From positions 312,029-376,028 of the IMG/VR virus record IMGVR_UViG_3300032007_000003: DNA of 64,000 nt, one strand, 5' to 3'. Every line of letters starts with the position of its first letter. The first letter of the stretch is position 1. The notes under the pieces were generated by a model. The model had not been told where the DNA came from. It did not search any database and saw only the letters and a list, made by a program, of their open reading frames with translations. Below are positions 20,057 to 63,033 of this stretch, piece by piece. The position numbers and the translations under genes are program-made. The DNA is from a virus (Duplodnaviria > Heunggongvirae > Uroviricota > Caudoviricetes).

Positions 20057-20057
20057 C

Positions 20058-44797: not shown

Positions 44798-44943
44798 AGT
44801 TAATTTGTCAAGAAAGTGGAAAAAATACTATAAATCTAAAAAAAAATTGGTTTTTTGTTTGGTCAATTCGAAATTATTTCGTATATTTGCATCGTGAAAC
44901 AATTAAATCAGTTATTAACAATTAAAAGAAAAGGAGAAAAGTT

Positions 44944-46041: not shown

Positions 46042-46046
46042 AAAAA

Positions 46047-46078
46047 TTAAGGGGAGAACGAAATTTCTCCCCTTTTTT
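46047..46078 (+). terminator. Rho-independent terminator
   Basis: AAGGGGAGAA/TTCTCCCCTT followed by a T-tract. Confidence 0.85.
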
Positions 46079-46114
46079 CTTCTTTGTAAATATTTATAAT
46101 AAAATATCATTATT

Positions 46115-46762
46115 ATGAATAAAAGAAGAGATAATATTTACATTTATTTATGGGAAGAATTTAATACAATATATATAGGTAGAAGCGTTAATCCTAAATG
46201 TAGGCATTCCCAACATAAAACAAGAGAAACTGAAAAGACTTATCAATTTAGTAGCAAACATCATGTTGAACACCCTAAAATGATTATAATTGAGAATGAT
46301 TTAACTGTTGAAGAAGGTGTTGAACGTGAAAAATATTGGATTGATTATTACAAAGAAAATACTGATTATTTTGTATTGAACAAGTCACATGGTGGAGAAA
46401 CAGGATTGTTAGGTGAATATGATGTTAAAAGAAGAGAAGAATGGCAGAAACAATATTACAAAAAAAATAGAGAAAAGATACTTGCTAAGGCTAAAAAATA
46501 TCGTGAAGAACATAGAGAAGAACTTAATGAAAAAGATAAAATTCGTTATTATAAAAAAAGAAAGCCATATCAACCATTAACAGATGAAGAAAAAAAAATA
46601 AAGCAAAAAGAATATCGTGAAAGAAATAAGGAAAAAATAAAAGAATATAGAAAAAATAATAAAGAAAAATTTCTTCAATATAAGAAAAAATATCGTGAAA
46701 CACACAAAGAAAAGATTAAAGAAGAAAATAAAAAATATTATGCTAAAAGAAAAAATAAATAA
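46115..46762 (+). CDS. GIY-YIG endonuclease with Lys/Glu-rich repetitive C-terminus
   Basis: IYIY...IYIGRSVNPKCRHSQH; E...REKYWI..Y...LN; tandem KEYRE.NKEKI repeats; very AT-rich. Confidence 0.8.
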   Translation: MNKRRDNIYIYLWEEFNTIYIGRSVNPKCRHSQHKTRETEKTYQFSSKHHVEHPKMIIIENDLTVEEGVEREKYWIDYYKENTDYFVLNKSHGGETGLLGEYDVKRREEWQKQYYKKNREKILAKAKKYREEHREELNEKDKIRYYKKRKPYQPLTDEEKKIKQKEYRERNKEKIKEYRKNNKEKFLQYKKKYRETHKEKIKEENKKYYAKRKNK

Positions 46763-46805
46763 GATTTTTCTTTGTTAATTGAAATAAATTCCGTATATTT
46801 ACACT

Positions 46806-47177
46806 ATGGTAAACAAGTTATATAGAATAAGGGTATATATTCCAACAGAAGAGATTGGTTTACTTATGAATGATGCGGTAGATACCAAAGCATTCAAGTT
46901 AAACAATAGTTATGATGGCATGAATGGTATGCTTGCTATCTATGATGGGGAGTGTAATACTAAGGTATTGATATTCCTTATTTCTATGGGAGTATTATAT
47001 TTCCCATTGGATAATTATGGTGATTTCATTATAACTTGTCCTAATTGTGGGGAGAGGATAGATGATGATATGATATTAACCATCTATGATGAAAATCTAT
47101 TAAGTGGCTATAATATTCTTTGTAATAGAGAGGATTGTGGCACACAGATGGCTAATGTGGAATTTCTAAACCAATAA
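46806..47177 (+). CDS. Hypothetical protein with C-terminal zinc-binding motif, probably leaderless
   Basis: CPNC...CNREDC; ATG 5 nt after -7 box. Confidence 0.75.
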   Translation: MVNKLYRIRVYIPTEEIGLLMNDAVDTKAFKLNNSYDGMNGMLAIYDGECNTKVLIFLISMGVLYFPLDNYGDFIITCPNCGERIDDDMILTIYDENLLSGYNILCNREDCGTQMANVEFLNQ

Positions 47178-47448
47178 GGATATGAATAATAAGAAGAAAA
47201 AGAAAAAATCATTTCTTAGCAAATATACTAAGATGGATTGTTTAACACTTGGCTTCTTCATTGGTTTGGCTTGTGGCTGTTTATTATCATTAATATAAAA
47301 ATGGTGTAATCTATAGGGGTTACACCTTTTTTTGTAAATAAAGTGGAAAAATATTAATATAAATTGAAAATAATTTGGATTTTGTTTGGCCAGTTGAAAA
47401 TAATTCCGTATATTTGCACCACAGAAAACAATTAAATAGATTAAAATT

Positions 47449-48270
47449 ATGTTAGGTTACAACAAAGCAAAGCAAGAGTTAGGAATTAGCTACTTAGGTA
47501 GCGTAGCACAGAGCATGAAGATGCGTTTATCCTTTGAGCATGGCACAATGACCTATTGTTTGTACCTCGCCCCTTGGAATATGAGTGGGTATAATGTATG
47601 TCCCAAAGGTCAGCATTGCAATGAGTTCTGTTTGAATGGTAGTGGACAGAATAAGTGTGATGAACTTGCAAGAGGTGTGGAAGGTTCTAAGATTAATCGT
47701 TCACGCATCAAGAAAACTCGTCTGTTCTATGAGAATAGAGGCTTATTCATGGATATGCTTACTCATGAGATAGAGAGTAAGAGAGCAAAGGCAAAGCGCA
47801 TGGGTTATGGTTTTAGTGTCCGTCTCAATGGCACAAGTGACCTTTCACCACTCGCATTCAGAGACCCCAAGACTGGTAAGAACATCTTAGAGTTGTTCAA
47901 CGATGTAGTTTTCTATGATTACACGAAAGTCTATAATAGAATACACCTTTTAGGTGAATACCCCAACTATGACCTCACATTCAGTTATGATGGTTATAAC
48001 TGGGACGAGTGCGAAAAGTTCTTACAGAACGATGGTAAGGTAGCGGTAGTGTTCTATTCTGAAAAGGGTATCTTACCCAAGAAGTTTAGGGGTTATGATG
48101 TGATAGATGCAAACGACTACGATATGCGTTATTTAGACCCCAAGCGTTCTATCATGGGATTGCATTACCATAAGACTGCAAACGATTATAAGAGTGGACA
48201 TTTTGTAGTACCAAATACACCATTCGTAATTAATCTTGACAAAGAGAGTGATGTGGATTGGGGATTTTAA
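47449..48270 (+). CDS. Gp88-like phage protein
   Basis: LYLAP...VCP...C..FCLNGSG; VRLNGTSD; FYDYTK; NYDLTFS; DLRYLDP-like motif. Confidence 0.75.
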   Translation: MLGYNKAKQELGISYLGSVAQSMKMRLSFEHGTMTYCLYLAPWNMSGYNVCPKGQHCNEFCLNGSGQNKCDELARGVEGSKINRSRIKKTRLFYENRGLFMDMLTHEIESKRAKAKRMGYGFSVRLNGTSDLSPLAFRDPKTGKNILELFNDVVFYDYTKVYNRIHLLGEYPNYDLTFSYDGYNWDECEKFLQNDGKVAVVFYSEKGILPKKFRGYDVIDANDYDMRYLDPKRSIMGLHYHKTANDYKSGHFVVPNTPFVINLDKESDVDWGF

Positions 48271-48358
48271 TTCCCCACCACATTTTCTAAGAAAAAATTT
48301 GGTAGATTCAAAATAATTTCGTATATTTACATTGTGAAACAATAAAGGAGATTGAGAT

Positions 48359-48601
48359 ATGAGTAAGAAAAGTATAGTTAATGAGATTACCGCCAAACTT
48401 GCAAAGTTAGGTGTGCCCAAAGATGGGTGTCATAATTTGGATATTGAGTTATCAAATGGTGATAAGTTGGCTTGGGTTGGTTATCGTCAGATGATGGTAA
48501 ATATCAAAATTGGTAATGCTCTTTATAGAAATAAGAGATTTCCTCTCTATTCAAAGGGAGTTGATGTCAATATGCTGAATTTGATTAATAGCAAATTATG
48601 A
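48359..48601 (+). CDS. Hypothetical protein
   Basis: Own promoter. Confidence 0.75.
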   Translation: MSKKSIVNEITAKLAKLGVPKDGCHNLDIELSNGDKLAWVGYRQMMVNIKIGNALYRNKRFPLYSKGVDVNMLNLINSKL

Positions 48602-48771
48602 GTGATAAAGTAATAGAGACCATATATTATATATTACTCATATTATTGGTTATAAGTGGCACATGGGCTATACATTGTTGTCCTTAACAAAAATTAACAA
48701 GATTCCTTTGGGAGTCTTGTTTTTTTTGTATATCTTTGCCAAAGTAATAAACTAATAAATTAATAGTAAAA

Positions 48772-49113
48772 ATGGTAGATAACGAAAGTAAAATTTGGGA
48801 AAAACTATGTGGCAAGAAAATTGGTACTGAGAAACTTTCGATAGAGGGTTTTAAGAATCAGATACCATTTGAGATTTTTGATGGCTATGCGTATTGTGAG
48901 AATTATAAGGGTCACAGATATGACATGAGTTATCCACAACTTAAAGCAGTAAGAGAGAGTGAAGAAATGGCTACTGCTGTTATGGATTATATCAACAAGA
49001 TAAGTGATAAGAAACTTGAAAGTGTTGATGAGATTGGTGTTATTCATTGTTTAATTGCTTTCAACACATTGTATCGTGATGGTGTTGAAATCGTACCAAA
49101 GAAAGTAGCATAA
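48772..49113 (+). CDS. Hypothetical protein
   Basis: Own promoter. Confidence 0.75.
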   Translation: MVDNESKIWEKLCGKKIGTEKLSIEGFKNQIPFEIFDGYAYCENYKGHRYDMSYPQLKAVRESEEMATAVMDYINKISDKKLESVDEIGVIHCLIAFNTLYRDGVEIVPKKVA

Positions 49114-49118
49114 GGATT

Positions 49119-49292
49119 ATGGCAAAGTTTACAATACAATGTAATTTCAATGCGTCTTACACTACCGAGGTAGATGCAAAAGATGAGGGCGAAGCACTTG
49201 AAAAGGCTCGTAATAAAGCAGAAGAAGCGGATTTGAAAGAGTTTGTAATTTGTGGTGAGCGTGAATCACAGATACTTAGTAGGGGAGATTAG
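49119..49292 (+). CDS. Small hypothetical protein (57 aa; EVDAKDEGEALEKA)
   Basis: Hand translation; resembles 49473-49685. Confidence 0.7.
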   Translation: MAKFTIQCNFNASYTTEVDAKDEGEALEKARNKAEEADLKEFVICGERESQILSRGD

Positions 49293-49329
49293 CGTTTCAT
49301 AGTTTTTTATTGTTTTATATTAGTTGTTC

Positions 49330-49367
49330 CATGTGGGGTTGATGAGTGTTCATCGACCCCATTTTTT
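49330..49367 (+). terminator. Rho-independent terminator
   Basis: TGGGGTTGATGA-GTGT-TCATCGACCCCA followed by a T-tract. Confidence 0.85.
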
Positions 49368-49472
49368 GTTAAAAAGGGTTAAAATCCCAGAGTTTTTCCT
49401 CAATTTCCTTTGTTAATTCAAAAAGATTTCGTATATTTGCACCATAGAAAACAATTAAAAGGAGATTTAGAT

Positions 49473-49685
49473 ATGAAGAAGTATTGGTTATTAAACGTGA
49501 CTGGTGTCGGTGGTTATTCCATCATGGTACACTGCGAAGCAAACACAATTGAAGAAGCACTCTGCCAAGCAGCAGAAGCAGACCTCTTTGATGATGAAAT
49601 TGATGCTGAAAACGCTTATGGTGAAGAAGCAGATGAAGATTCTATTAAACATTTCAAAGAGCACAATTTGGTAGTTGAACTTTAA
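49473..49685 (+). CDS. Small acidic hypothetical protein
   Basis: Start moved to MKKYW after AAGGAG. Confidence 0.75.
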   Translation: MKKYWLLNVTGVGGYSIMVHCEANTIEEALCQAAEADLFDDEIDAENAYGEEADEDSIKHFKEHNLVVEL

Positions 49686-49690
49686 GAGTT

Positions 49691-50146
49691 ATGGTAGAAG
49701 CAAAGTTAAGAGTTGAAATGTTAGAGAATAGAGAGGGTAGCAAAAACCCATTCTACGGCTCTACATTGGTCAAAAAAGTGGTTGAGGATATTCATATCCA
49801 TGACTTTGACAAACGCAGCGATATTGCCCCTTGTGGTGTTAATGCCACAATCGCCATTGATACTGAGGTGATACTTGGCGAGGGTGAAGAACACTTAAAG
49901 ACAAAGAGAGTGTTTGACATTAGAGTGAATAGGTTCTATTTCGACCATGAGGGTAGTGGCGGTTATCTCGCTTTCTTCTCAATCGAGGAAAAGGTTTATG
50001 AACTCTTTGTAAATTTCGAGGGTAAGCACATCACCAATATTACACTTTCAGAGTGGTTGCAGAGTGGTAGTTTTGAAGATGGTGACGATGCGGATAATGT
50101 CTATAATGCAAAGGATTTTACTATTATCAATATAATAGAAAGTTAG
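49691..50146 (+). CDS. Hypothetical protein
   Basis: Packed ORF. Confidence 0.75.
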   Translation: MVEAKLRVEMLENREGSKNPFYGSTLVKKVVEDIHIHDFDKRSDIAPCGVNATIAIDTEVILGEGEEHLKTKRVFDIRVNRFYFDHEGSGGYLAFFSIEEKVYELFVNFEGKHITNITLSEWLQSGSFEDGDDADNVYNAKDFTIINIIES

Positions 50147-50151
50147 GGAAT

Positions 50152-50301
50152 ATGGAAGAAGCAATACAAGACATCAGAGATTGGGCTGAGAAGTATGGTG
50201 ACGCTGCTTGTCTTAACAGACTACTCGACATCATGGCAGACCAAATGAAAATCGCTGAAGTGAAGAGATTAGCAAACGAAATATGGGAATATAACCATTA
50301 A
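50152..50301 (+). CDS. Small hypothetical protein (49 aa)
   Basis: Hand translation. Confidence 0.6.
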   Translation: MEEAIQDIRDWAEKYGDAACLNRLLDIMADQMKIAEVKRLANEIWEYNH

Positions 50302-50420
50302 ATGTTAAAATGGGTTAAAACGCCAGATAAAATTTGGTTAGTTCAAAAATAATCCGTATATTTACACCACAAGAGAAATAAATAACATTATTAATAATTA
50401 AAGAATAGGAGATTAAAACT

Positions 50421-50969
50421 ATGGCAAAAGAGACAAAGAAAACAACGATTGATGCACGTGTACGTGCAATTGCAGAGAGTGGTAGTGGTAAGGGTGTTGG
50501 TATGCCCAAGTGGTTTACTTTACCGCAGAATAAGGACAAGCGTGACCTCCATATCAACATCTGTAAGAAACTCGCTGAGTTGTCCAACGCACATAACAAC
50601 TACCCCATCACCTACTTGGTGTATTTCGCTGTGGGCAAGAACGCACACCGCCTTTGCACATTCCTTGGTGGTTATGAGAAGATTGACGAGAAGAAAGCGG
50701 AGACTATCTTCAAGTGGCTTACGCTGTTCGCCAAGCATCACAAGAACGAAAAGTTGTTCAAGAATCCCAATGTCGCCCATGCGCTGTGTCGTTTCTACGA
50801 CAAGTATAGCACCAAGACAAAGGATTTCAAGGCCGCTCTCGATGCTTCTGAATCCAACCCCAACATTGACGTGAAGAACGCTAAGATGTCTGTTGAGACA
50901 CTTGGTATCGCCAAGAAAGTTGAGGTTGTTGCAGAGGAAATGGAAATGGCTATGGCTGCTGTCGAGTAA
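50421..50969 (+). CDS. Basic hypothetical protein
   Basis: Own promoter and terminator (TGGTGGGG/CCCCACCA near 50980-51005). Confidence 0.8.
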   Translation: MAKETKKTTIDARVRAIAESGSGKGVGMPKWFTLPQNKDKRDLHINICKKLAELSNAHNNYPITYLVYFAVGKNAHRLCTFLGGYEKIDEKKAETIFKWLTLFAKHHKNEKLFKNPNVAHALCRFYDKYSTKTKDFKAALDASESNPNIDVKNAKMSVETLGIAKKVEVVAEEMEMAMAAVE

Positions 50970-51085
50970 GACAAAGTTATGGTGGGGTGAAATAATCCCC
51001 ACCAACTTTTCTGAAAAAAAAGTGAGATTTTTCTTGGTCAATCCAAATTAATTTCGTATCTTTACATCGTTAAAGCAAAAGAGTT

Positions 51086-51304
51086 ATGGGTACATACGAA
51101 ACAGAGTTGGGTTACATCGTAAGAGAGACCCTTGGTGGTTTGGAAGTCACAGAGGACGATAAGGTCATTTGCACACTCGATGGCAAGACCCTCGAAGACT
51201 ATCGTGACGAGAACGAAAATATTGATGATGATGCACTCGAAGCAGACATCCGTGAGGTGGAAGAAGCAGAGGATTTCTTAGCCTATCAGAAGGAATACTG
51301 CTAA
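51086..51304 (+). CDS. Small acidic hypothetical protein
   Basis: Own promoter. Confidence 0.75.
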   Translation: MGTYETELGYIVRETLGGLEVTEDDKVICTLDGKTLEDYRDENENIDDDALEADIREVEEAEDFLAYQKEYC

Positions 51305-51418
51305 CAAATGTTAATGAGTGCAAATTTCTACAAAAAAATTTGGTAGTTTCAAAAAATTTTCGTATATTTGCATCGTGAAACAATAACAAAGTATTAATAA
51401 TAAAAAGGTAAAAGCAAA

Positions 51419-51592
51419 ATGAGTGGACAGAAGAAACTCAATCGAGCGATTCGAAACAACCGAGTGGTAGCAATGCCCTCGAAGAAGAAAGAAGTGCCGA
51501 TTCTTGACCGAGACGGACAGAACGTTCTTGATAAGGATGGAAAGCCTCAAGTAGAAACTATTCAGCTTTACAAAATCAAGAAGTTGAAGTAA
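51419..51592 (+). CDS. Small basic protein (57 aa, not in track)
   Basis: Hand translation MSGQKKLNRAIRNNR...; own promoter at 51363. Confidence 0.7.
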   Translation: MSGQKKLNRAIRNNRVVAMPSKKKEVPILDRDGQNVLDKDGKPQVETIQLYKIKKLK

Positions 51593-51600
51593 TGATTGTC

Positions 51601-51930
51601 TAACTTACTAAAGAGGAAAGATAATGGAAAGACCTCCGCCCTCATAAGGGATTAAGTTTAGGAATATGTTTTTAGAAAAATTGCCGATAAACTTTAAGGG
51701 GAGAACATTTAAAGGCGAGATTGCCCCTATGCTCGCAAACATCGAAGTGATGATTAGAGACCGACCCTAAGTAAAGAATATTTACCACCTCTACCCATGT
51801 CAATGTGCATGGCTTGGCAAGGTCATAAGACCGAAAAAAATAAATACAAGTAATAGAATATATAGTGAGGTGGGAAGTGCCGCCCCAAGCGTTTGCGCTG
51901 TCTTTGGCTGCAATCCCCCTCACACTTTTA
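51601..51930 (+). ncRNA. Candidate structured RNA(s)
   Basis: Three-way junction at 51602-51658, H-type pseudoknot at 51697-51736, hairpin at 51865-51922. Confidence 0.4.
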
Positions 51931-51933
51931 ATA

Positions 51934-52056
51934 CGCCCTATGATGTGGTTAAGATTGGGATAATCTATAGTAATGCCCTATCAAGACTGACATACGTTGC
52001 ATAATTAAAACGTTCAATGGTTGTGTGATAGATTGATTCGATTCAGTATAGGGTAC
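51934..52056 (+). ncRNA. Candidate tRNA-like RNA with long internal arm
   Basis: GCCCT/AGGGT ends, GATTCGATTC T-loop-like element, CTATCA/TGATAG arm. Confidence 0.35.
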
Positions 52057-52061
52057 AAAAT

Positions 52062-52148
52062 GCGCCCATAATTCAGTTGGTAGAAATCGTGCCGATGTTT
52101 ACATCTTGTGTGCTCGTATGCCGTAGGTTCGAGTCCTACTGGGTTGCA
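52062..52148 (+). ncRNA. tRNA-like RNA or degenerate tRNA without a canonical anticodon arm
   Basis: D arm ATTC-AGTTGGTA-GAA, perfect T arm GTAGG-TTCGAGT-CCTAC, bulged acceptor GCGCCCA/TGGG(T)TGC. Confidence 0.65.
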
Positions 52149-52219
52149 CTTATGCTCGTTTTGCGTTGTGGTAACGCTCTTTGTTTTCCATAATTTGAAT
52201 TGTTAGGTTTTTAGTTTTG

Positions 52220-52260
52220 ATTGGGTGATGTCGTGAGACATTGCCCAATTTGTGTTTTTT
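52220..52260 (+). terminator. Rho-independent terminator
   Basis: TTGGGTGATGTC-GTGA-GACATTGCCCAA. Confidence 0.8.
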
Positions 52261-52334
52261 AACATAAAAAATTTGGTAGATTCGTTATTTTTTCGTATAT
52301 TTGCATTGTAAAACATTAAATAAGGAGATTGATT

Positions 52335-52628
52335 ATGAGAGTTAAGCATTTCGCTGGCTATGGTTCAGTTGAGGTAAAGAAAGTCTTGAAGAAGGCTATC
52401 ATCAACGGATACGGAGAAAATAAGACAAAACTCATTTTGCGTGTAAAAGGTAATCACGAGTGGGGTATTGTTCGTAATGACATCTTTGATGTTAGAGATT
52501 GGATATTCAATAAGTTTGAAAAGAACTTTAATGGTGATGATTATGACATCTATATGGATGTTCAAGACGAATACATCAAGGAAAATGGTATTGATGTTGA
52601 GGTAGCAACTTATACATTTATATATTAA
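52335..52628 (+). CDS. Hypothetical protein
   Basis: Own promoter; AAGGAG. Confidence 0.8.
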   Translation: MRVKHFAGYGSVEVKKVLKKAIINGYGENKTKLILRVKGNHEWGIVRNDIFDVRDWIFNKFEKNFNGDDYDIYMDVQDEYIKENGIDVEVATYTFIY

Positions 52629-52703
52629 AAAGCGTTAAAAAGTTTGGTGGTGTGAAAAATATTCTGTATATTTACACCATCAAATATTAAATAAGGAGAT
52701 ATT

Positions 52704-53507
52704 ATGGCAGATTTAAATTTAGTTGAAAGAGCAAACAAAATTATCACATTCCGTAAGTATATTCGTGAGGAGTGTCGCAAAAAGGGTTTGGAATATCCAT
52801 CAGATGCTAAGATTTCCGAATATATTGCCGATTGTGGTGGTGACGAGTGTGTATATGACCTCAACGATTTCATGGGCGACTATGAGAATAAGATTGGTAT
52901 TTTCAAAGACCCATTCGATGATTTCAAGGCAGAGGTATCAAAGCACGATTGGGTTAAGACTACTGATGAAGAAATGCGTGACTTCATTACAGAGCAAGGT
53001 TACAATGTACGTGGTTTCTTGCGTTGCAAAATCATTGGTAGCTATAAGCCACTGGAGAAAGACATTCTCGTTGCTACGCTCTCAAAGCTGACTACCCCTC
53101 AATTAGTTCAGTTGTGGAACAAATTCATTGAGGAAAGTGCTGTTTATGGCGAGGATTCTTATATCTATGACCTCACCAAGCAAGACGATGTAAATTTGCT
53201 TCGTGGTGGCTTAAAACCATCTGAATGGGCAAAGGTTGTGGGCTTTAAGTGTCGTTATGTGTCTTGGCACAATCTCAATGATGGCAGACTGCTCAAATAT
53301 GACGATGAAGGCATCAAAGGTGTGATTGTTGGCTATTGGAGTGACATTTTCCCTCGTCTCATGGTTTGGAGTGAGTTGTACGATACGATTGGTGAGGGTA
53401 AGGATGGGATTGCTTACTTTGACTTCATTGTACGACCAATCATCTGTAAGTATCTTGGGTATGAATATGACCCACAGAGAGGAACATTTGAGGAAATTAA
53501 AAAGTAA
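52704..53507 (+). CDS. Hypothetical protein
   Basis: Own promoter; AAGGAG. Confidence 0.8.
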   Translation: MADLNLVERANKIITFRKYIREECRKKGLEYPSDAKISEYIADCGGDECVYDLNDFMGDYENKIGIFKDPFDDFKAEVSKHDWVKTTDEEMRDFITEQGYNVRGFLRCKIIGSYKPLEKDILVATLSKLTTPQLVQLWNKFIEESAVYGEDSYIYDLTKQDDVNLLRGGLKPSEWAKVVGFKCRYVSWHNLNDGRLLKYDDEGIKGVIVGYWSDIFPRLMVWSELYDTIGEGKDGIAYFDFIVRPIICKYLGYEYDPQRGTFEEIKK

Positions 53508-53794
53508 ATTCACTATGTTTGGAATATTTCTGCTTTTCTGTATGGCTGTTATGGTGTGGGACATTACAAGTGACCCACACTATACCACCAAAATGAAAGA
53601 TTTGGAGGAGGATTAAAAATGGGTTATAATAAAGAATTGGCATCTGCTTGTCACCTTTTGTTTGCTTATGCCTCAGAGCATAAAGAAGATAAAGAGCTTG
53701 AGGCAATAGCAAATAAGTTTGATAAAATTCTATACAATAGAAAATAAATCCATAATAATTTGGAATTGTCGATATTTATTTATATATTTGCAAT

Positions 53795-54082
53795 ATGAGT
53801 ACAATAGGACAGAATTTTAAACAAGCAATCAATAATAACTTTAAGCATAACATGATTAATCGTGATGCTGAAAGTATCTTCACTGCTCTTAACATTGGAG
53901 TTAAGGATAGTGATAACATGGTTGTGCTTCCAAAGGTTGAAAAAATTGAATTAACTAAGATTGATGACTTACACGATAAGTTATCATTATCTTGGGATGA
54001 CTATAAGACAGAGGGAGTAATAACATGGAGACCATCGAAAGTTGAAAACTCAAAAGCAATGGTTTTCTGTAATATCGAGTAA
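53795..54082 (+). CDS. Hypothetical protein, probably leaderless
   Basis: ATG 5 nt after -7 box. Confidence 0.75.
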   Translation: MSTIGQNFKQAINNNFKHNMINRDAESIFTALNIGVKDSDNMVVLPKVEKIELTKIDDLHDKLSLSWDDYKTEGVITWRPSKVENSKAMVFCNIE

Positions 54083-54158
54083 GTTTTTAATGAAATTAAA
54101 TAATTTTTTCACTCCCAATGTCCGTGATGGATGGTTTGGGAGTGTTTTTTTTATATGA

Positions 54159-54242
54159 GCCACGGTGGGGAAACTAGGTTAGACCCAGCAGACTTAAAAT
54201 CTGCCGCTGTAAAGCATCCCAGTTCGAATCTGGGTCGTGGTA
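54159..54242 (+). tRNA. trnL: tRNA-Leu (TAA), CCA not encoded
   Basis: Acceptor GCCACGG/TCGTGGT, anticodon arm GCAGA-CT-TAA-AA-TCTGC, long variable arm, T arm CCCAG-TTCGAAT-CTGGG. Confidence 0.93.
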
Positions 54243-54389
54243 CATAAATTTAATCTCCTTTTTCAAGTGGGAAATGTTAAAGATTGTTAAAATCCAGACA
54301 TTTCTCACTAATTTTTTTGGTAGATTCATTATTTTTTCGTATATTTGCATCACAAATAAGAACAATTTAAAAGAAAAGGAGATTAGATT

Positions 54390-54638
54390 ATGAGAAAGTA
54401 TCAAGAAGAAATTTACAATGCCCTTGTAAGCAAGAAAAAGGCTTGGGGTGGTAGTAATTCAGTTGTGAACACTGATAAGAATATCACAGAGGTATTCTAT
54501 TATGGCAATAGAATTGCGGTTATTAACCACAACACTAAGAGCGCAACGTTTGACAACTGCGGTTATACCAATGCTTCTACAACAGCACGTATCAACGCTT
54601 GCAAGATATATTGCGACAATTATGGTTACACCTATTAA
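54390..54638 (+). CDS. Hypothetical phage protein
   Basis: VFYYGNRIA...GYTNASTTARINA; own promoter. Confidence 0.8.
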   Translation: MRKYQEEIYNALVSKKKAWGGSNSVVNTDKNITEVFYYGNRIAVINHNTKSATFDNCGYTNASTTARINACKIYCDNYGYTY

Positions 54639-54651
54639 AGTAGATTGAGTT

Positions 54652-55095
54652 ATGGTATTCGATAGAAACATAGAGTTAAAAGAAAAGCAAGAAAAGTTGC
54701 TTGCTGAACTCCGTAAGATAGTTGGTAGGGGATTTGTATTCTCCGAAGCCTATTTAAAGCAATGTAACTGGGAAAGTAATCGCATTGGTGAGGGAGAAAG
54801 ACAATTTGGCAAAGTAACCAAGAAATACGTTTATGTGCCTTGCAGAGCGATTTATACTACAAATGATGATGGCACGGAGTATGGCGCAAAGATTTTGAAG
54901 TATTCTGTATGCACAACGCAAGGGAATACAGATAAGATTGCATTGGAAGACTTATATGTCAAGGATTTGGAAAAGATTATCAATGACATTAAGTTTGCTA
55001 TTTGGTGGGAGAAAGATGTAAGAATGAAGAAAATTGAGGCTGAAATGGCAGATTGCCAGAAGTATGTGGATTTATTTGATAAATTCTTGAAATAA
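54652..55095 (+). CDS. Hypothetical protein
   Basis: Packed ORF. Confidence 0.75.
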   Translation: MVFDRNIELKEKQEKLLAELRKIVGRGFVFSEAYLKQCNWESNRIGEGERQFGKVTKKYVYVPCRAIYTTNDDGTEYGAKILKYSVCTTQGNTDKIALEDLYVKDLEKIINDIKFAIWWEKDVRMKKIEAEMADCQKYVDLFDKFLK

Positions 55096-55304
55096 TAAAT
55101 AGATTCATTATATTTATAGTATATTCCAAGGGAATTATGAGGGATTCCCTTGGATTTTTAAGGAGATAACCTTTTTAAATCAATAAGGATTGGTATTGGG
55201 GAATGCCAATCTTTATTTTTTTTTTTGAAAATTTCTTCAGATTTTCTTGGTCAATTCAAAATAATTTCGTATATTTGCATCGTAAACAAATAAAGAATAA
55301 GATT

Positions 55305-55700
55305 ATGAGTAATTCAAAAGTTAGAAAGCAGTTAGAAGCACGGAGTAAGAATGAGAAGTTGTTGGAAGCCTACAAGAAAAAGGCTGACCTCATCCTCAAC
55401 TATCAGATGTGCAAAGCATACTATAAGGATAGTGGTCTTTCTATCCTCGCCATTGTAGAGAAAATCTTAAAGATGAAGTATAACTTGCCTTGGCAAGAAA
55501 AACTGATTCGTAAGGCTCTAAATGAGGCGAGAGGTAAGACAAATGCAACTATCACTATTCCTCAGTTTAAATATGAGAAAAAGGTGCATGATATTCTTGC
55601 CGAGTTTGTTGAAAAGAACTTGAATAAGATGGCACGAGAGACATCTACAAGGGGATTGTACCCACTTGCATTTATCGATATGGTAGAGAAATTTTCATAG
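55305..55700 (+). CDS. Basic hypothetical protein
   Basis: Start moved downstream of promoter 55270; terminator GTGGTGACTAGG/CCTAGTCGCCAC follows. Confidence 0.75.
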   Translation: MSNSKVRKQLEARSKNEKLLEAYKKKADLILNYQMCKAYYKDSGLSILAIVEKILKMKYNLPWQEKLIRKALNEARGKTNATITIPQFKYEKKVHDILAEFVEKNLNKMARETSTRGLYPLAFIDMVEKFS

Positions 55701-55873
55701 TCGTAATCTTTTTTGTTTTTGGACGTGGTGACTAGGTAATCAATCAAAGCCTAGTCGCCACTTTTTATTTAAAAAAATGTTAAAATCCAGATTTTTATAC
55801 GAAAAAATTTGGTAGATTCGTTTTTTTTCCGTATATTTGCACCACAGAAAACAATTAAAAGGAGATTAGGAAT

Positions 55874-56593
55874 ATGGAATTAAGTGAGATTAAAGCAATT
55901 GTTACGAACAACTACTCAAAGCAGTATCGTGCTCATGTAGTTAATGGTGGCTCTAAGGTTGTTCGCCTTTGGCAGACAGATGATGGACGTATTGCCATCA
56001 TGAGCAAGGGAAGAAAGAAATATGGACATGAGTTATCATTATGGTACGACCATTATGACGAGTGGACAGATTTACGTCTCGTTGAGCACAAGGAATTTGA
56101 CTACTACAAGCGTTTCGTTAAGCGTGCTAATGATGCCTTGAAGATGCTGAATGAGAGTGGTTTGTGGACAGACATCAAACAGAGTATTGAGCATTTCTTT
56201 ACACTTTCAGAGGCTGAACAGAAAGAATTGATAAACGACATTATAACAGATTCTTATGAATTGTTTTATAGTGAAGTTTACAAAGAAAATGGTAAGTATG
56301 CCTGGGTGCATAGTTATCAAGTATTTGAAGCCTTTGTGAGAAAGACGTGTTGGAAGTCTATTGCATGGCACAGATGGGAACGTGAGGAAATGAGCAAGCG
56401 AGTTGCTGAGTGCATCAAGAATGGTGGCAAGTTTTCAAGACGTTGGGAAAATGGCTATGATAACACAGTCGAGGTTGCAAATCTCAATGGTGAGAAACTT
56501 GCATGGTATTCAGAGGAATACAGAGGTTGCGGAAATGGACATTATTACTTGATGTTTGATGCTACTCATGCAATATTCTATGAGGACGATTAA
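55874..56593 (+). CDS. Hypothetical phage protein
   Basis: C-terminal WYSEEYRGCGNGHYYL; own promoter. Confidence 0.8.
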   Translation: MELSEIKAIVTNNYSKQYRAHVVNGGSKVVRLWQTDDGRIAIMSKGRKKYGHELSLWYDHYDEWTDLRLVEHKEFDYYKRFVKRANDALKMLNESGLWTDIKQSIEHFFTLSEAEQKELINDIITDSYELFYSEVYKENGKYAWVHSYQVFEAFVRKTCWKSIAWHRWEREEMSKRVAECIKNGGKFSRRWENGYDNTVEVANLNGEKLAWYSEEYRGCGNGHYYLMFDATHAIFYEDD

Positions 56594-56680
56594 AAAAGGG
56601 AGAAAAAAACTCCCTTTTTCCTTGGCTATTTAAAATAAATTCCGTATATTTACATCACAAAACAATTAAAGATTAGAATT

Positions 56681-57070
56681 ATGGAATATACAATGAAGAA
56701 AATCGGTAGCAAATATCCGAGCAACGCTATCCTCAAGGAAATGTATCAAACCATTATGCTCTACATTAAGGGCAAAGGCAATATGTTTGCCATGACAGAG
56801 AAGTGTCGGCAGTATTTCACTTGGGGTGCAAATGCTTTCAAGTATATCGTCTCAGAAGATGGCTGCTATGGCATTCAGTTCAATGTAACTGGTCTGCTTC
56901 ACAGAGGTCGAGTAAGAATTTACTACAATATCGGTTCTGATTATTTCGATGTTGAATTGCTCCGTGCAAGGAAAGATGAAATGGTTTGGGGTGCTGAAGA
57001 TATTGATTTTGAGCAACTGCATAACATTCTTCATCGGCACATCGAAAGAACTGATGATGTAGAATGTTAA
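56681..57070 (+). CDS. Hypothetical phage protein
   Basis: GIQFNVTG..HRGRVRIYYN.GSDYFDVE; own promoter. Confidence 0.8.
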   Translation: MEYTMKKIGSKYPSNAILKEMYQTIMLYIKGKGNMFAMTEKCRQYFTWGANAFKYIVSEDGCYGIQFNVTGLLHRGRVRIYYNIGSDYFDVELLRARKDEMVWGAEDIDFEQLHNILHRHIERTDDVEC

Positions 57071-57137
57071 AAACGTTAAATTGTTTGGCGGAATGAAAAT
57101 AATTCCGTATCTTTACATCACAAAACAATTAAAGATT

Positions 57138-57536
57138 ATGGCAGATTTAAAGAGTTTTATTAAGAAGTGGGATGGTCGTACCTTAGAGGACGATGGTGAG
57201 TATATATCAAAGGAATTTCATTCATTCCAAGTGAGTTTCTTTAACGCAATGAGAAAGATTGCTGCATCCCTTGGTGGTGAGGTTGTTAACCCTTGCTATG
57301 GTCATTATGATATGTGTGGCTTTGTTAAGAGAGGCGACAAGTATGTGTTCTTTAACTATTCCAATGGTTGTGGTCGTGGCGGCAGAAGTCACGTTGCATT
57401 GAAGAACGATGGCAATTGGCTCACTCCAATGTATTGTAGAACAGCCAAACACGATAAGGATTGGACTGGTGGAAGCAATAACAATTGCTACTTTGAAGAT
57501 TGTGAGAGCGTTATCGAGAGACTATTAAATTCTTGA
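57138..57536 (+). CDS. Hypothetical phage protein
   Basis: GHYDMCGFVKRG..YVF; YCRTA.HDKDWTGG.N; start moved to MADL. Confidence 0.8.
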   Translation: MADLKSFIKKWDGRTLEDDGEYISKEFHSFQVSFFNAMRKIAASLGGEVVNPCYGHYDMCGFVKRGDKYVFFNYSNGCGRGGRSHVALKNDGNWLTPMYCRTAKHDKDWTGGSNNNCYFEDCESVIERLLNS

Positions 57537-57538
57537 TT

Positions 57539-57661
57539 ATGGCAACATTACATATATATTGGGATGATGATGTAACCGTTGAGTTGCGTTATTTCCCATC
57601 AGAAAAGAGTGCAAAGCAATACGCTAAACGCAATGGTGTTGTAGATTATAATATTGATTGA
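57539..57661 (+). CDS. Micro-ORF (40 aa)
   Basis: Hand translation. Confidence 0.55.
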   Translation: MATLHIYWDDDVTVELRYFPSEKSAKQYAKRNGVVDYNID

Positions 57662-57715
57662 ATTGTTAAAAACGTTAAATTGTTTGGTGGAATGAAAATA
57701 ATTTCGTATATTTAC

Positions 57716-57970
57716 ATCGCTTAAGAGAAATAAACGTGGGTCAAAAAACTGCCAATGTTCTGCGCAGATTGGTAGTGGTGGTGCAAGTTATGGTATTTGT
57801 GACGATAATCCGTCTTGTACGATAATTTTCAAGTTGCATCACATTTCCCACATTTTATAAGATATAGGGCAAGAATGTGTTGAAAGATGGGATTGGGTAG
57901 CCATCGCAAAGAGGGGATAAGGATTGCCCGCACGAAAGCAAAATCAAACCCCCCATGTCTTGTCTTTTTT
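57716..57970 (+). ncRNA. Candidate structured ncRNA with its own promoter (two domains)
   Basis: Promoter at 57707, no ORF, multiple long stems, T-tract at 57965-57970. Confidence 0.65.
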
Positions 57971-57997
57971 GAATGATTTTTCAATCAAATCTCCTTT

Positions 57998-58034
57998 CCG
58001 ACCTCCAAGTGTTAAAAAATTGCACTTGGAGGTT
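57998..58034 (+). terminator. Hairpin/terminator
   Basis: ACCTCCAAGTG/CACTTGGAGGT. Confidence 0.75.
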
Positions 58035-58110
58035 ATTTTTATACGAAAAAATTTGGTAGATTCAAAATAATTTCGTATATTTGCATCAGAAATAAAAAAG
58101 ATTAGAGATT

Positions 58111-58350
58111 ATGGGAATGTTTTGTAACAATGACAAAAAGCACTACTGCGGAAGATACAAGGGTATTGATGTATGGCAGTATGGTAGCATGATAGGAAAT
58201 AATTGGTATGGTGATTTCTATGTTACCATTCCGAGGGGAGCAACAAAGCGGAACATGAAAGTTAAGGATAGTGTGTGCCGTTCTCTCGATGCCGTTAAGG
58301 AGTATATTAACAACCATTTGGAAGAACTTAAAAAGGAGAGCGCAAAATGA
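58111..58350 (+). CDS. Hypothetical protein
   Basis: Own promoter. Confidence 0.75.
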   Translation: MGMFCNNDKKHYCGRYKGIDVWQYGSMIGNNWYGDFYVTIPRGATKRNMKVKDSVCRSLDAVKEYINNHLEELKKESAK

Positions 58351-59024
58351 GTGTAAGGAGTGGAAAAGAAACAAAGCGTACCCCAATGGAACTTTATAAG
58401 GGGTATCGTGTTATCAAGGTGACGAAAATCGAATATCATCGTTGCCTTTGGGATGAAAGCCGATTCGATAAAGATTGGATTGATAAGAAAGAAGTGCATT
58501 TTGATTTCTGCAAAGAGGGTAACGAGAAACTCCCATCGCAGGATTATAATGTGCAAGCAAAGAACGTTGAGGGCTGCAAAGAAGCAATAGATAAGTTCCT
58601 CAATGGTGATAACAAGGGTAATGGTGACATCTACTATACTCATGCGGAATTTCAGAAGTATGTTAAATCACCCAATAATAAGTGTGATTATGGCTACGGC
58701 TACGATTCTCTTATGAGAGTGATGCGAGAGCACCAAAAGGCTGATAAGCGTATGAAATGGTTTCTCGAAGAGAGATTGCATGACGCAAATTTCCATCCTG
58801 AGGGCGATATTCTTTCCACTTGTGACTATGCCAAGTTCGAGGAATATGTAACCAATACAAATCCTTTTAAGGAGAAGTTTGAGGTTTATACCAAGACGCT
58901 TAAAAAGCGTATCAAAGACCCAAAGAGCCTTGAAGATGGTTTAAATAAGGTGATTAGCGATTACCTTGCAAGTCAAGGAATAAAAGATACATCTGTGGTG
59001 GTGAGATTCTGTGAAGAATGGTAG
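58347..59024 (+). CDS. Hypothetical protein
   Basis: ATGA overlap. Confidence 0.8.
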   Translation: MSVRSGKETKRTPMELYKGYRVIKVTKIEYHRCLWDESRFDKDWIDKKEVHFDFCKEGNEKLPSQDYNVQAKNVEGCKEAIDKFLNGDNKGNGDIYYTHAEFQKYVKSPNNKCDYGYGYDSLMRVMREHQKADKRMKWFLEERLHDANFHPEGDILSTCDYAKFEEYVTNTNPFKEKFEVYTKTLKKRIKDPKSLEDGLNKVISDYLASQGIKDTSVVVRFCEEW

Positions 59025-59159
59025 CCATAACGAAGTTAAGTATGTGAATGTTTGTTAAGTGGGAAGAGATTATTTTTATATTAATTTCTTCCCATTTTAT
59101 TTGGCTAATTGAAATAAATTCCGTATATTTACACCATAACAATTAAAAGGATATAAGAT

Positions 59160-59381
59160 ATGGATATTAAAGAAGTAAGAAATAATCTCATTAAGGATTT
59201 GGAGAATGAATACACTCCAACTGAAATAGAGTTGATTGACATCCGTTTGGACGAAATCGCTGAAATGGAACACATGAGTCTTGAAGACTTGGACTACTAT
59301 TGCACAGCCAATTCAAGCGAAATGTTTGCTTGCATCTTTGATTATAAGGAGTTTAATAAAAAGAACTTTGAAGTAGATTGA
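59160..59381 (+). CDS. Small acidic hypothetical protein
   Basis: Own promoter. Confidence 0.75.
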   Translation: MDIKEVRNNLIKDLENEYTPTEIELIDIRLDEIAEMEHMSLEDLDYYCTANSSEMFACIFDYKEFNKKNFEVD

Positions 59382-59384
59382 GAC

Positions 59385-59615
59385 ATGAAATACGGAATGA
59401 CAATTGAGTATAACAACTCAGACCCAAAGTATATCAATGACATTACAACTTGGGGTGATGTGTTGGACACTCTCAGACATAGATTAGACCAATTGACAAT
59501 TAGAGTTCACATCTATAAGTGGTCAAGTAATAACAGATGTCTTGGGCATAGATGCGTTACAATGGGCAATCTCTATTTCGTGGCTTGCTCACCAACTGAT
59601 AAGATATTAATATAA
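59385..59615 (+). CDS. Hypothetical protein
   Basis: Packed ORF. Confidence 0.65.
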   Translation: MKYGMTIEYNNSDPKYINDITTWGDVLDTLRHRLDQLTIRVHIYKWSSNNRCLGHRCVTMGNLYFVACSPTDKILI

Positions 59616-59633
59616 ATTTAAAATAAAGTAACA

Positions 59634-59858
59634 ATGAGAAGAATTGCGATTATTGACCATGCGACTCACGAGTTGATGGTTGAAGATGTGAACGAAACCG
59701 AGTTAGAAAAGTATGGCGGTGACGAACAAGCCTACATTGATGACAATTACACCTTTGAGGGTGATTATTCGTGGGACTGGATTACTGATGCCCAATACTT
59801 TAACGAGGATGGTGATATTATTGAGATTGATTTCGATGAAATAGGTGACATTTATTAA
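59634..59858 (+). CDS. Small highly acidic protein
   Basis: D/E-rich, 74 aa. Confidence 0.75.
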   Translation: MRRIAIIDHATHELMVEDVNETELEKYGGDEQAYIDDNYTFEGDYSWDWITDAQYFNEDGDIIEIDFDEIGDIY

Positions 59859-59945
59859 ACGTTAAATCTGAGTTGATTTTTTGGTTAATTCAGATTTTTT
59901 TCGTATATTTGCACCAAGAAATAAATAAATAAAGGAGATTAGATT

Positions 59946-60341
59946 ATGTGGTTTAACAACAAATTCAACAAAGACAACACGATTCACTTTGATGTGGAAG
60001 AGTGGGTTTGCACAGATGTAGACGAATGTCAGTTCTGTAGAAAGATTAGTGATACGGAGTTTGAGTACATTCAGTTGAAGAATGACGATTTGAAGAAATT
60101 CGTTGAGACATTTCACTTGGGCAACAAACATTTGCTTTCAGTTCTGAATGACCGCACCACAATCGCTGATTGGTATCAGAGTGAGACAGATGTGAACGAT
60201 TACGATGCGGAGCAGATTGGTGAGTATCTTTCGCCTTATGGCGGTATTCTTGATGGTGTGACTGATGATGTCGAGCGCAATCAGTTGATTGCAGAGTGTA
60301 TTTTTGAAACTGATGATGTAGCAAACGATTGGTATGAGTAA
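59946..60341 (+). CDS. Acidic hypothetical protein
   Basis: Own promoter; TDVDECQFCRKI...IAECIFET. Confidence 0.8.
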   Translation: MWFNNKFNKDNTIHFDVEEWVCTDVDECQFCRKISDTEFEYIQLKNDDLKKFVETFHLGNKHLLSVLNDRTTIADWYQSETDVNDYDAEQIGEYLSPYGGILDGVTDDVERNQLIAECIFETDDVANDWYE

Positions 60342-60600
60342 GAATGTTAAAGTAGTCTATTATGTGGACATTGACGATAATACGAAGGGGTGTTTGTGTG
60401 CTATTCCGTCTGATAAAGATTTGCGTGATAGCTGCATAATCCAAAAGGTAGCTGATGAAATCAAGTCAGTATTTGAGCCAATACACCAGCTAATGGGAGA
60501 GCATTCTGTTGACCTTGCCAAAGCGGTTTGCCATCATGGATATTCAAATATCTTTGAGTATGAATTTGGCGTTGAAGAAGTGCCACTCATTGAGTGTTAA
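60334..60600 (+). CDS. Hypothetical protein
   Basis: Packed ORF. Confidence 0.7.
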   Translation: MSKNVKVVYYVDIDDNTKGCLCAIPSDKDLRDSCIIQKVADEIKSVFEPIHQLMGEHSVDLAKAVCHHGYSNIFEYEFGVEEVPLIEC

Positions 60601-60679
60601 AAATGTTAATTCCCTTGGTCAATTCAAGGGAATTTCGTATATTTACACCATCAAATAATAATTAAAAGGAGATTAGAAT

Positions 60680-61141
60680 ATGGCAAAGAAGATTTTTACA
60701 AGCAAGATGATTCCCGAACTTGTCTATAAGGTAGTAGGTGAGGATTGGCTTGATGGCAAGACCTATGTGGTTTGTTTCCAAGAAATGAAAGATGGTGATG
60801 GTGATGTTTATCATCTTGAAGTGGAATACCATAAGGATGAGAATAAATTCACTTATACAAGGGTATATGCTTATGAGAATGTTCATACTGCATCCATAAG
60901 TGCTACATTTAAGAATCAGTTTGAGGAATACATCATGCAGCAAGTAGGCGAATTGCGTGAGGGCAGTTTCATCAACGTTCAGAGTGTTCCACTTGAATTG
61001 AAGTTGGAGATACCAAAGGAAACAAGCGTTGGTGAGGTGCATGAGTTCCTAAGAAGCCTTAAATTTGAGGTGGTTCATACAATGACACCAAAAGACGAGA
61101 AAAAGATAAGGATATTGGAGATAAAGAATAAAAAATTGTAA
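60680..61141 (+). CDS. Hypothetical protein
   Basis: Own promoter; AAGGAG. Confidence 0.8.
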   Translation: MAKKIFTSKMIPELVYKVVGEDWLDGKTYVVCFQEMKDGDGDVYHLEVEYHKDENKFTYTRVYAYENVHTASISATFKNQFEEYIMQQVGELREGSFINVQSVPLELKLEIPKETSVGEVHEFLRSLKFEVVHTMTPKDEKKIRILEIKNKKL

Positions 61142-62639: not shown

Positions 62640-62882
62640 GTCAGCGAGACAGAAATAAAGTAAGGTGATTAGGAATAAAATACCTCCTTTCTGTAAATAG
62701 GTTTTTGATACGTTCCTCTCAAAGATTCTCAGCGGAGAACACCTTACTTTTTCAAGGATATATTTGGAAGATACCAGAGGAGAACTATCCGCAAGGGTAG
62801 ATGTAGACAAATGGGCATTAAGTTCGTGCTTGATGTGCTTCTTCGGAGGCTTCGTGGTGTGCAAATCCCACTCTTCCAACAA
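62640..62882 (+). ncRNA. Candidate two-domain ncRNA with its own promoter; 3' domain tRNA-like
   Basis: 11-bp AAAGTAAGGTG/CACCTTACTTT stem; TTGGAAGA/TCTTCCAA acceptor-like stem, GCAA and TTCG tetraloop hairpins, T-arm-like element. Confidence 0.7.
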
Positions 62883-63033
62883 ATCTAATCTTTTTAATTG
62901 TTACTGATTCTTGTCGTTGTGGGTGATAGCAATTCGGCTATCACCCTAATTTATTTGTTAATATATCTTAATAAGTTTGGTCAATTAAAAATAATTTCGT
63001 ATATTTGCACCATAATTAAAAAGAGAATAAGAT

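What the first reader, a model, noticed from the sequence alone, without database searches (positions are those of the whole stretch)
57716..57970. Second stand-alone structured ncRNA cassette
Seen: a full promoter module (-7 box 57707) is followed by about 250 nt of non-coding sequence ending in a T-tract. Domain 1 is closed by GTGGG/CCCAC (57736/57847). It holds an ACTGCCAAT/ATTGGTAGT hairpin and a long bulged arm (GTGGTGCAA/TTGCATCAC, GTTAT/ATAAT, GTA/TAC, GACG/CGTC). Domain 2 is closed by AGGGCAAGA/TCTTGTCTT (57866/57958) and holds GATGG/CCATC and GGGG..GATT..AATC..CCCC arms. An RNA occupying a slot in the gene-cassette array implies it is the functional product. Domain 2 carries tokens (GGGCAA, GAAAGA-TGGGA, CGCAAAG) that loosely recall c-di-GMP-I aptamers; a nucleotide-signal sponge role is speculation.
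Basis: partly seen in the sequence, partly recalled or inferred. Interest (0 to 1): 0.7.

Follow-up and report, generated by a model that had tools for sequence, protein, structure and literature searches.

The report
Shuffled structured-RNA cassette in jumbo phage
This giant bacterial virus has a protein-free early gene made of two separate folded RNAs found in no RNA catalogue; related viruses mix and match them with other RNA modules, and my best but unproven guess is that they are decoys against host proteins.

Summary
Real, but not one two-domain RNA and not a c-di-GMP aptamer. The window is from a 412-kb T4-like phage with Bacteroidota-type promoters. 57719-58042 is a promoter-to-terminator unit with no conserved ORF. 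Unit A (57736-57851) is a three-way junction with an invariant palindromic loop (CUGCGCAG) and an arm carrying swappable nested modules. Unit D (57866-57966) is a three-way junction with a loop-loop pseudoknot. Both covary (D: 17 of 29 pairs in 36 homologs; A: 11 of 26 in 18). Relatives arrange these and further units in 16 architectures, including D alone between promoter and terminator, which argues against a riboswitch. No Rfam, phage or plasmid match, and only one weak, probably chance, bacterial pattern hit. Nearly all copies come from one narrow phage clade. No expression data were obtained. Best guess (0.4): early trans-acting decoys or inhibitors of host proteins, swapped like the protein cassettes around them. 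The scan's first readers noted similar RNA islands and trailers on related DNA (e1-5641724, e1-5427902).

The parts
57683..57714 (+). Bacteroidota-type primary-sigma promoter: -33 TTTG (57683-86) and -7 box (57707-14); inferred +1 near 57719
   Evidence: Sequence; consensus TTTG/TANNTTTG with the -7 element at -12 to -5 from PMC6847099; part of a repeated module, 52 of 55 nt identical to the one near 57064-57118. Start site inferred, not measured.
57736..57851 (+). Unit A: three-way-junction chassis. P1 57736-40/57847-51, linker YCAAAA, P2 57748-56/57768-76, arm stem P3 57778-86/57834-42
   Evidence: z -3.64; 18 distinct homologs, 95% of cells paired, 11 of 26 pairs changed on both sides, 0 of 500 shuffles as high
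57760..57767 (+). Self-complementary loop octamer CUGCGCAG in the 11-nt P2 loop; candidate kissing or dimerisation site, or protein site
   Evidence: Present in 17 of 17 A units found without requiring it while the stem covaries; self-duplex -13.5 kcal/mol; only copy in the genome. Dimerisation is inferred.
57801..57824 (+). Nested module z at the tip of the A arm: 4-bp hairpin plus conserved 10-nt strand; optional
   Evidence: Present in 14 of 18 A units; its four pairs never vary, so they are not proven by covariation
57852..57865 (+). A/U-rich linker between units; candidate processing or recombination joint
   Evidence: Similar linkers join A-B, A-D and C-D in relatives; an AGATA-type word precedes 14 of 40 distinct D contexts. 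Role inferred.
57866..57966 (+). Unit D: three-way junction. P1 57866-77/57955-66, GUUGAAA 57879-85, P2 57886-90/57901-05, GCAAAG 57906-11, P3a 57912-16/57951-54, internal loop AUAAG 57917-21 with AAACC 57946-50, P3b 57922-25/57942-45
   Evidence: 36 distinct homologs, 92% of cells paired, 17 of 29 pairs changed on both sides, 0 of 500 shuffles as high; model R1 scores it 95 bits
57894..57930 (+). Loop-loop pseudoknot in D: 57894-98 pairs with 57926-30
   Evidence: 92% of cells paired, 2 of 5 pairs changed on both sides in alignment A1; all 47 distinct D copies, in 20 loop-pair types, keep a run of 4 or more complementary bases, including divergent D' and L183
57971..57998 (+). 3' trailer complementary to the SD-to-ATG leaders of the phage's own early genes
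   Evidence: Duplexes of -20.5 to -15.5 kcal/mol with six early leaders; 0.25% of random genome windows reach -16; anti-SD word follows D in 32 of 48 contexts, and the opposite-strand ORF it would start is not conserved, 0-115 aa
58000..58042 (+). Intrinsic-terminator-like hairpin (13 bp) with T-rich tail, directly before the next promoter (-33 at 58052, -7 at 58076)
   Evidence: z -7.0; a hairpin of different sequence sits here in most homologs

Best explanation
An early phage gene whose products are RNAs. Shown: two conserved folds, no conserved protein, unit-wise shuffling among relatives, and position in the hypervariable early cassette array of a T4-like jumbo phage. Inferred: host RNA polymerase makes a ~325-nt transcript early in infection, and it either stays whole or is trimmed at the A/U-rich linkers into closed-stem units. 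Inferred, weakly: each unit acts in trans as a decoy or inhibitor of a host RNA-binding protein or defence complex, as pseudo-ToxI and rAcrVIA1 do. D would be a compact fold with conserved single strands. A would be a dimerising chassis that displays swappable payload modules. Phage lineages would swap units as they swap the small protein genes around them. The targets are unknown.
For: Covariation in A and D. 16 architectures, including D alone, D before A, and nested x/y/z/w/v modules in A. D alone between promoter and terminator in L185 and L139. No fixed neighbouring protein. Sits among repeated promoter modules in a phage with a gp23-type capsid, the setting described for PeSL cassettes of adaptive genes (PMC4122927). 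Absent from more distant complete relatives, as expected of lineage-specific adaptation. Precedents: pseudo-ToxI (PMC3475682), Racrs (PMC10651486), and rAcrVIA1, which mimics structure without sequence homology (PMC12948488).
Against: No host RNA or protein target was identified. The D core has no convincing match in 185,579 prokaryotic genomes (one weak hit lacking P3) and no Rfam family matches, so mimicry of a known host RNA is not shown. None of the ten neighbouring proteins tested has a Pfam or PHROG family, so the anti-defence character of the region rests on analogy. D is single-copy in all five complete genomes tested, unlike amplified pseudo-ToxI arrays.
Confidence: 0.4

Rival explanations
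1. Unit D is an aptamer that soaks up a small molecule, such as a nucleotide immune signal or alarmone, and the other units are aptamers for other ligands.
For: D has the same outline as purine and c-di-GMP-I aptamers: a tight three-way junction with P2 and P3 held together at their tips (PMC4744006; purine riboswitch from own knowledge). Junction strands are conserved even in D'. It is expressed without an expression platform.
Against: The GEMM defining features fail. The conserved strands could simply be tertiary contacts. One ligand per 100-nt RNA is a costly sponge (inference). A literature search found no natural precedent.
Confidence: 0.17
2. The folds are cis stabilisers or processing signals, and the working part is the antisense trailer, which damps translation of the phage's own early genes as it accumulates.
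For: The trailer pairs strongly with early leaders and follows D in 32 of 48 contexts. D also sits at the 5' or 3' end of protein-coding transcripts.
Against: Similar inverted leaders end other cassettes that have no D (seen by eye). One third of D contexts lack the trailer. A stabiliser does not explain several different unit types or nested payloads.
Confidence: 0.13
3. The units are assembly modules. A and C join through their palindromic loops into RNA dimers, chains or cages that scaffold or sequester something.
For: Invariant palindrome in A. Unit C carries a loop with the same UGCGCA core in 10 of 11 copies. Short natural RNAs such as manA form cages (bioRxiv 10.64898/2026.07.01.735769), and ROOL and GOLLD form homo-oligomers (PMC12286853).
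Against: An invariant palindrome fits a protein site equally well, and no compensatory palindrome variant was seen. D, the unit found most often here, lacks it. This rival is compatible with the best explanation rather than excluded by it.
Confidence: 0.12
4. D, or a nested module, is a new self-cleaving ribozyme that processes phage transcripts.
For: Size, pseudoknot and conserved core fit the general form of small ribozymes (own knowledge). One copy lies 7 nt before a tRNA-Ser-like gene (L183).
Against: The hammerhead core and NUH site are not present and no Rfam ribozyme matches. A lone ribozyme between promoter and terminator (L185) would have little to process.
Confidence: 0.08
5. The region is explained by a small protein, for example the 51-aa minus-strand ORF 57829-57984 that has a Shine-Dalgarno, or is non-functional filler.
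For: An SD plus start codon does lie on the minus strand at about 57984-57995.
Against: That ORF is 0-115 aa and mostly 4-14 aa in homologs. Indels break frame in both A and D, and the three plus frames hold stops in 31-36 of 36 homologs. Covariation argues for selection on structure.
Confidence: 0.03

Closest known systems
PeSL promoter/stem-loop cassettes of T4-like hyperplastic regions (PMC2839356, PMC4122927)
   Same: T4-like phage; repeated terminator-plus-early-promoter modules bracket variable cargo that is gained, lost and swapped between relatives.
   Different: The described cargo is protein genes. Here it is structured RNA, and shuffling also occurs below cassette level, between units and inside the arm of unit A.
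Phage RNA decoys: pseudo-ToxI of phage TE (PMC3475682), Racrs (PMC10651486), rAcrVIA1 (cited in PMC12948488)
   Same: Phage-encoded non-coding RNAs proposed or shown to act in trans on host RNA-binding defence proteins.
   Different: No resemblance to ToxI or to Rfam CRISPR repeats, no tandem amplification, larger and more complex folds, several unrelated units per transcript, and no known target.
c-di-GMP-I (GEMM, RF01051) and purine riboswitch aptamers
   Same: Three-way junction with a P2-P3 long-range contact; AAA and CGCAAAG words flank P2.
   Different: Watson-Crick kissing loops instead of GNRA tetraloop and receptor; the ligand-contact bases cannot be mapped; no expression platform; mostly at 3' ends or alone; no covariance-model match.
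Oligomerising phage-associated RNAs: GOLLD, ROOL (PMC12286853) and manA (bioRxiv 10.64898/2026.07.01.735769)
   Same: Structured non-coding RNAs of unknown function; unit A has a loop suited to intermolecular pairing.
   Different: No Rfam match; much smaller than GOLLD or ROOL; a string of independent units in an early cassette array, not one ornate RNA in a tRNA island.

Membership tests
c-di-GMP-I (GEMM) riboswitch | P1, P2, P3 three-way junction | tested here: met
   feature list from PMC4744006
c-di-GMP-I (GEMM) riboswitch | GNRA tetraloop on P2 docking in a receptor in P3 | tested here: not met
   The P2 loop is 9-10 nt and pairs with the P3 loop with compensatory changes
c-di-GMP-I (GEMM) riboswitch | Ligand contacts G20, A47, C92 and the interhelical C-G pair | tested here: inconclusive
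   An A follows P2, but the 5' junction reads GUUG, the 3' junction is mostly AU, and the GGGCAA token is in variable P1; no reliable mapping
c-di-GMP-I (GEMM) riboswitch | Covariance-model match to RF01051 | tested here: not met
   No match in the genome at E<=1, none in the region at E<=10
c-di-GMP-I (GEMM) riboswitch | Lies in a 5' UTR with an expression platform | tested here: not met
   Mostly last unit before a terminator; alone in L185 and L139; ahead of an ORF in only a minority
c-di-GMP-I (GEMM) riboswitch | Binds a cyclic dinucleotide | not testable with these tools
   Needs in-line probing or ITC
Hammerhead ribozyme (type I) | CUGANGA, GAAA and NUH core | tested here: not met
   D has GUUGAAA and GCAAAG and no conserved NUH at the P3-P1 joint (core consensus from own knowledge); no Rfam hit
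Type III antitoxin mimic (pseudo-ToxI) | Tandem short repeats resembling the host antitoxin | tested here: not met
   No internal or genomic repeat of the region; single copy; no Rfam hit
RNA anti-CRISPR (Racr) | Solitary copy of a host CRISPR repeat | tested here: inconclusive
   No Rfam CRISPR-repeat hit, but the host is unknown and its repeats could not be compared
RNA anti-defence decoy in general | Binds and inhibits a host defence protein | not testable with these tools
   No target or assay available
PeSL-type cassette array | Repeated stem-loop plus early-promoter modules flanking variable cargo in a T4-like phage | tested here: met
   gp23 capsid; repeated promoter modules; hairpin 58000-58034 before promoter 58052; cargo differs between relatives
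PeSL-type cassette array | Recombination occurs within the repeated module | not tested
   Breakpoints were not mapped
tRNA, tmRNA or Y RNA | Cloverleaf, tag ORF, or Ro60 partner gene | tested here: not met
   ARAGORN and Rfam find none here; no TROVE gene in this genome, though a host Ro60 partner is not excluded

The most novel reading that the evidence does not exclude
A combinatorial arsenal of phage RNA effectors. Independent folded RNAs, and a dimerising chassis with plug-in payload modules, are swapped between phage lineages like anti-defence protein genes, and each neutralises a different host defence protein or immune signal. D may be the first natural RNA sponge for such a signal.
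Probability: 0.3. Interest if true: 0.9.

Novelty: new variant of a known kind. Interest (0 to 1): 0.66.

Why it matters
Few phage counter-defence RNAs are described (pseudo-ToxI, Racrs, rAcrVIA1). Here one clade of jumbo phages carries at least six uncatalogued unit types plus nested modules, in the genome region where adaptive genes turn over. If they act on host defences, anti-defence catalogues built from proteins miss a layer, and the units would be baits for finding unknown RNA-binding defence systems of Bacteroidota. Whatever the function, D (about 100 nt, covarying pseudoknot) and A (palindromic loop, arm that tolerates inserts of 0-150 nt) are new, small, directly testable RNA folds.

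Tried and rejected
Rfam at gathering and E-value thresholds: nothing relevant. BLAST against GenBank phages and PLSDB plasmids: only a 33-nt chance hit in two Bacillus phages. Bacterial genomes by exact D-core pattern: one Acidobacteria hit that lacks P3 and scores 22.5 bits, taken as chance. I could not run the covariance models over Bacteroidota host genomes because no handle to one was obtained. Models R1 and R2 over more distant T4-like records: one weak R1 hit (20 bits) in 29, none for R2; the neighbouring 129-aa protein is also absent there. A dedicated protein partner was rejected because neighbours vary; Pfam, PHROG and Atlas give no function for them. Phage Ro60 and bS21 genes are absent. 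Short word resemblances that I recalled from memory (RNase P, the 23S L1 stalk and GTPase centre, retron msr, SRP Alu) were not supported by Rfam at E<=10 and were dropped. Paper searches found no description of these RNAs; the Fremin 2021 candidate set could not be compared by sequence.

Full report
Setting. The window is part of one 412,435-base virus record with 34% GC and 54 ARAGORN tRNA calls. It has a T4-like gp23 capsid gene and a terminase. Its capsid has no close named relative; the best GenBank matches are about 40% identical over half the length. The right third of the window is an array of small genes, most behind a near-clonal promoter module that fits the Bacteroidota TTTG/TANNTTTG consensus (PMC6847099). 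A Bacteroidota host is inferred from this. The layout matches the PeSL cassette arrays in T4-like hyperplastic regions (PMC4122927). I recall several of the sample series as rumen metagenomes, but no tool confirmed that.

Observation. Domain 1 folds better than all 200 shuffles (z -3.64). Domain 2 does not (z +0.66), and its comparative structure without the pseudoknot is 2.9 kcal/mol above the minimum, so its evidence is comparative. The T-tract at 57965 is kept in only 12 of 43 homologs, while a 13-bp hairpin with T-rich tail at 58000-58042 (z -7.0) lies directly before the next promoter. The transcript is therefore most likely about 57719-58042. No Rfam family matches the region or seven homologous loci.

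Homologs. Neighbouring proteins led to syntenic loci in related jumbo phages. A pattern from domain 2 found 8 viral and 68 metagenome stretches, most of them true homologs by model R1. In 36 distinct copies unit D is a three-way junction: 92% of cells pair, 17 of 29 pairs change on both sides against a shuffled mean of 10 (0 of 500), and sliding the partners drops pairing to 42-52%. The loops of P2 and P3 pair. All 47 distinct copies keep at least four complementary bases, in 20 loop-pair types with G-C to A-U and G-C to U-A swaps. Caveat: the strands around P2 were in the search pattern, so their invariance is partly by construction. Divergent D' copies, found by synteny and by the model, still keep UGAA, GCAAA, AUAAGG and CAAC. 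Unit A, in 18 distinct copies, has 95% of cells paired and 11 of 26 pairs changed on both sides. Its loop octamer is present in 17 of 17 copies found without requiring it, although all came from loci fetched for D or its neighbours.

Modularity. This is the main new result. A and D are not one RNA. Relatives show 16 architectures: D alone, A-D, C-D, A-B-C-D, A-B-C-D-E, D-A, D-A-E, D-F and others. The arm of A ranges from a bare hairpin (78-nt unit) to three nested modules (232 nt); the window copy carries only module z. Thirteen other loci, some near-duplicates, are ORF-free from promoter to next promoter, and L185 and L139 hold D alone. Others place the array in the 3' end of a protein gene or ahead of one, with no fixed partner. 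Some contigs have two D-type copies in separate cassettes (L150, L004, L120). Units B, C, E and F were recognised by sequence and closing stems only; I did not test their covariation. D is single-copy in this genome and four close ones; A is in three of those four. Both are absent from more distant complete relatives, with capsid identity 56-81%, apart from one 20-bit R1 hit. One D copy lies on a short contig with no detectable protein match to this phage, 7 nt before a tRNA-Ser-like gene (L183).

No protein explains it. Unit lengths vary in all three frames, and the three plus frames hold stops in 31-36 of 36 homologs. The minus-strand SD and start codon open ORFs of 0-115 aa with no common product.

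Trailer. Following notes e1-5427902 and e1-5419583 on other genomes, I tested 57971-57998. It pairs with six early leaders at -20.5 to -15.5 kcal/mol, a level reached by about 0.25% of random windows, and an anti-SD word follows D in 32 of 48 contexts. Similar inverted leaders end other cassettes too (by eye), so the trailer belongs to the cassette design more than to D. It may be regulatory or a relic of inverted modules.

Mechanism. Shown: conserved folds, no ORF, unit-level shuffling, narrow range, early-type promoter. Inferred: early transcription and possible trimming at A/U-rich linkers. Most likely function, at 0.4: trans-acting decoys or inhibitors of host proteins. The grounds are the location among fast-turnover early genes, the independence from any downstream gene, and precedents for phage RNAs that block defence by mimicry (PMC3475682; PMC10651486; rAcrVIA1 in PMC12948488). 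No target was found, and the D core has no convincing copy in bacterial genomes. Rivals are a ligand sponge (0.17), stabiliser plus antisense trailer (0.13), RNA assembly through palindromic loops (0.12, compatible with the best reading), a new ribozyme (0.08) and a small protein or filler (0.03).

Comparison with known families. D shares the outline of c-di-GMP-I but fails the tetraloop-receptor, model-score and location tests, so it is not a member; whether it binds a ligand is open. It is not a hammerhead, tRNA, tmRNA or tandem antitoxin mimic. The cassette is a PeSL-type unit with RNA cargo. Ten paper searches found no description of these RNAs; most subscription papers are not in the library. 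The scan's first readers noted similar RNA islands in related genomes (e1-5641724, e1-5642014); those notes are unchecked and are not counted as support.

Verdict. Real and uncatalogued, with strong comparative support for structure and weak support for any one function. I class it as a new variant of a known kind (two new RNA families as cargo of a known cassette design) and score interest 0.66, with a 0.3 chance of the bolder reading.

Noticed in passing
window 51590-52150 (+): Second ORF-poor RNA island with several closed-stem units and tRNA-like pieces; the matching island in relative G004 is about 1.4 kb with many more units.
   Followed up: partly
window 62640-62882 (+): Third promoter-driven RNA cassette of two units joined by a similar A/U-rich linker; the second unit is tRNA-like with a T-arm; the first varies in G004.
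   Followed up: partly
G000 about 3.5 kb beyond the window end (-); L119, L120, L280, L281, L284, L285: Unit F: another chassis RNA (GGUAG/CUACC closing stem, fixed hairpins, one variable arm), present in more than one place per genome and sometimes directly after D.
   Followed up: partly
window 54245-54262, about 52170-52200, 62880-62905, 49295-49315, 55695-55720: Inverted leader-plus-start sequences just before terminators in both RNA and protein cassettes; only 54253 and 57989 carry the full anti-SD word.
   Followed up: partly
window 44932-60680: Early genes have strong GGAG Shine-Dalgarno leaders although Bacteroidota ribosomes normally hide the anti-SD (PMC7797042); no phage bS21 gene was found.
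   Followed up: partly
L183:253-444: A divergent D copy 7 nt upstream of a tRNA-Ser(GGA)-like gene on a contig with no protein match to this phage.
   Followed up: partly
L127, L135, L136 upstream of D: D follows a long, very acidic ORF of about 250 aa with no match in G000; a possible DNA mimic.
   Followed up: no
window 20040-20909 and 8400-9086: Microbial-type PARG (PF10021, TIGR02452 family) and an RNA ligase (PF09414); both could repair damage done by host defences.
   Followed up: partly
G000 276410-276486 (outside the window): A tRNA with CUA anticodon, a possible amber suppressor, although window genes read normally in code 11; several tRNA calls carry insertions.
   Followed up: no
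window 57539-57661 (+): A 40-codon ORF just upstream of the RNA promoter, below the 50-aa list; a homolog at 68% identity is in L166.
   Followed up: partly
L001:3739-3868 and other unit C copies: Unit C has a hairpin loop with the same UGCGCA palindrome core as unit A (10 of 11 copies) and a UAAGG..CAACUCC motif like D', so the units may share building blocks.
   Followed up: partly
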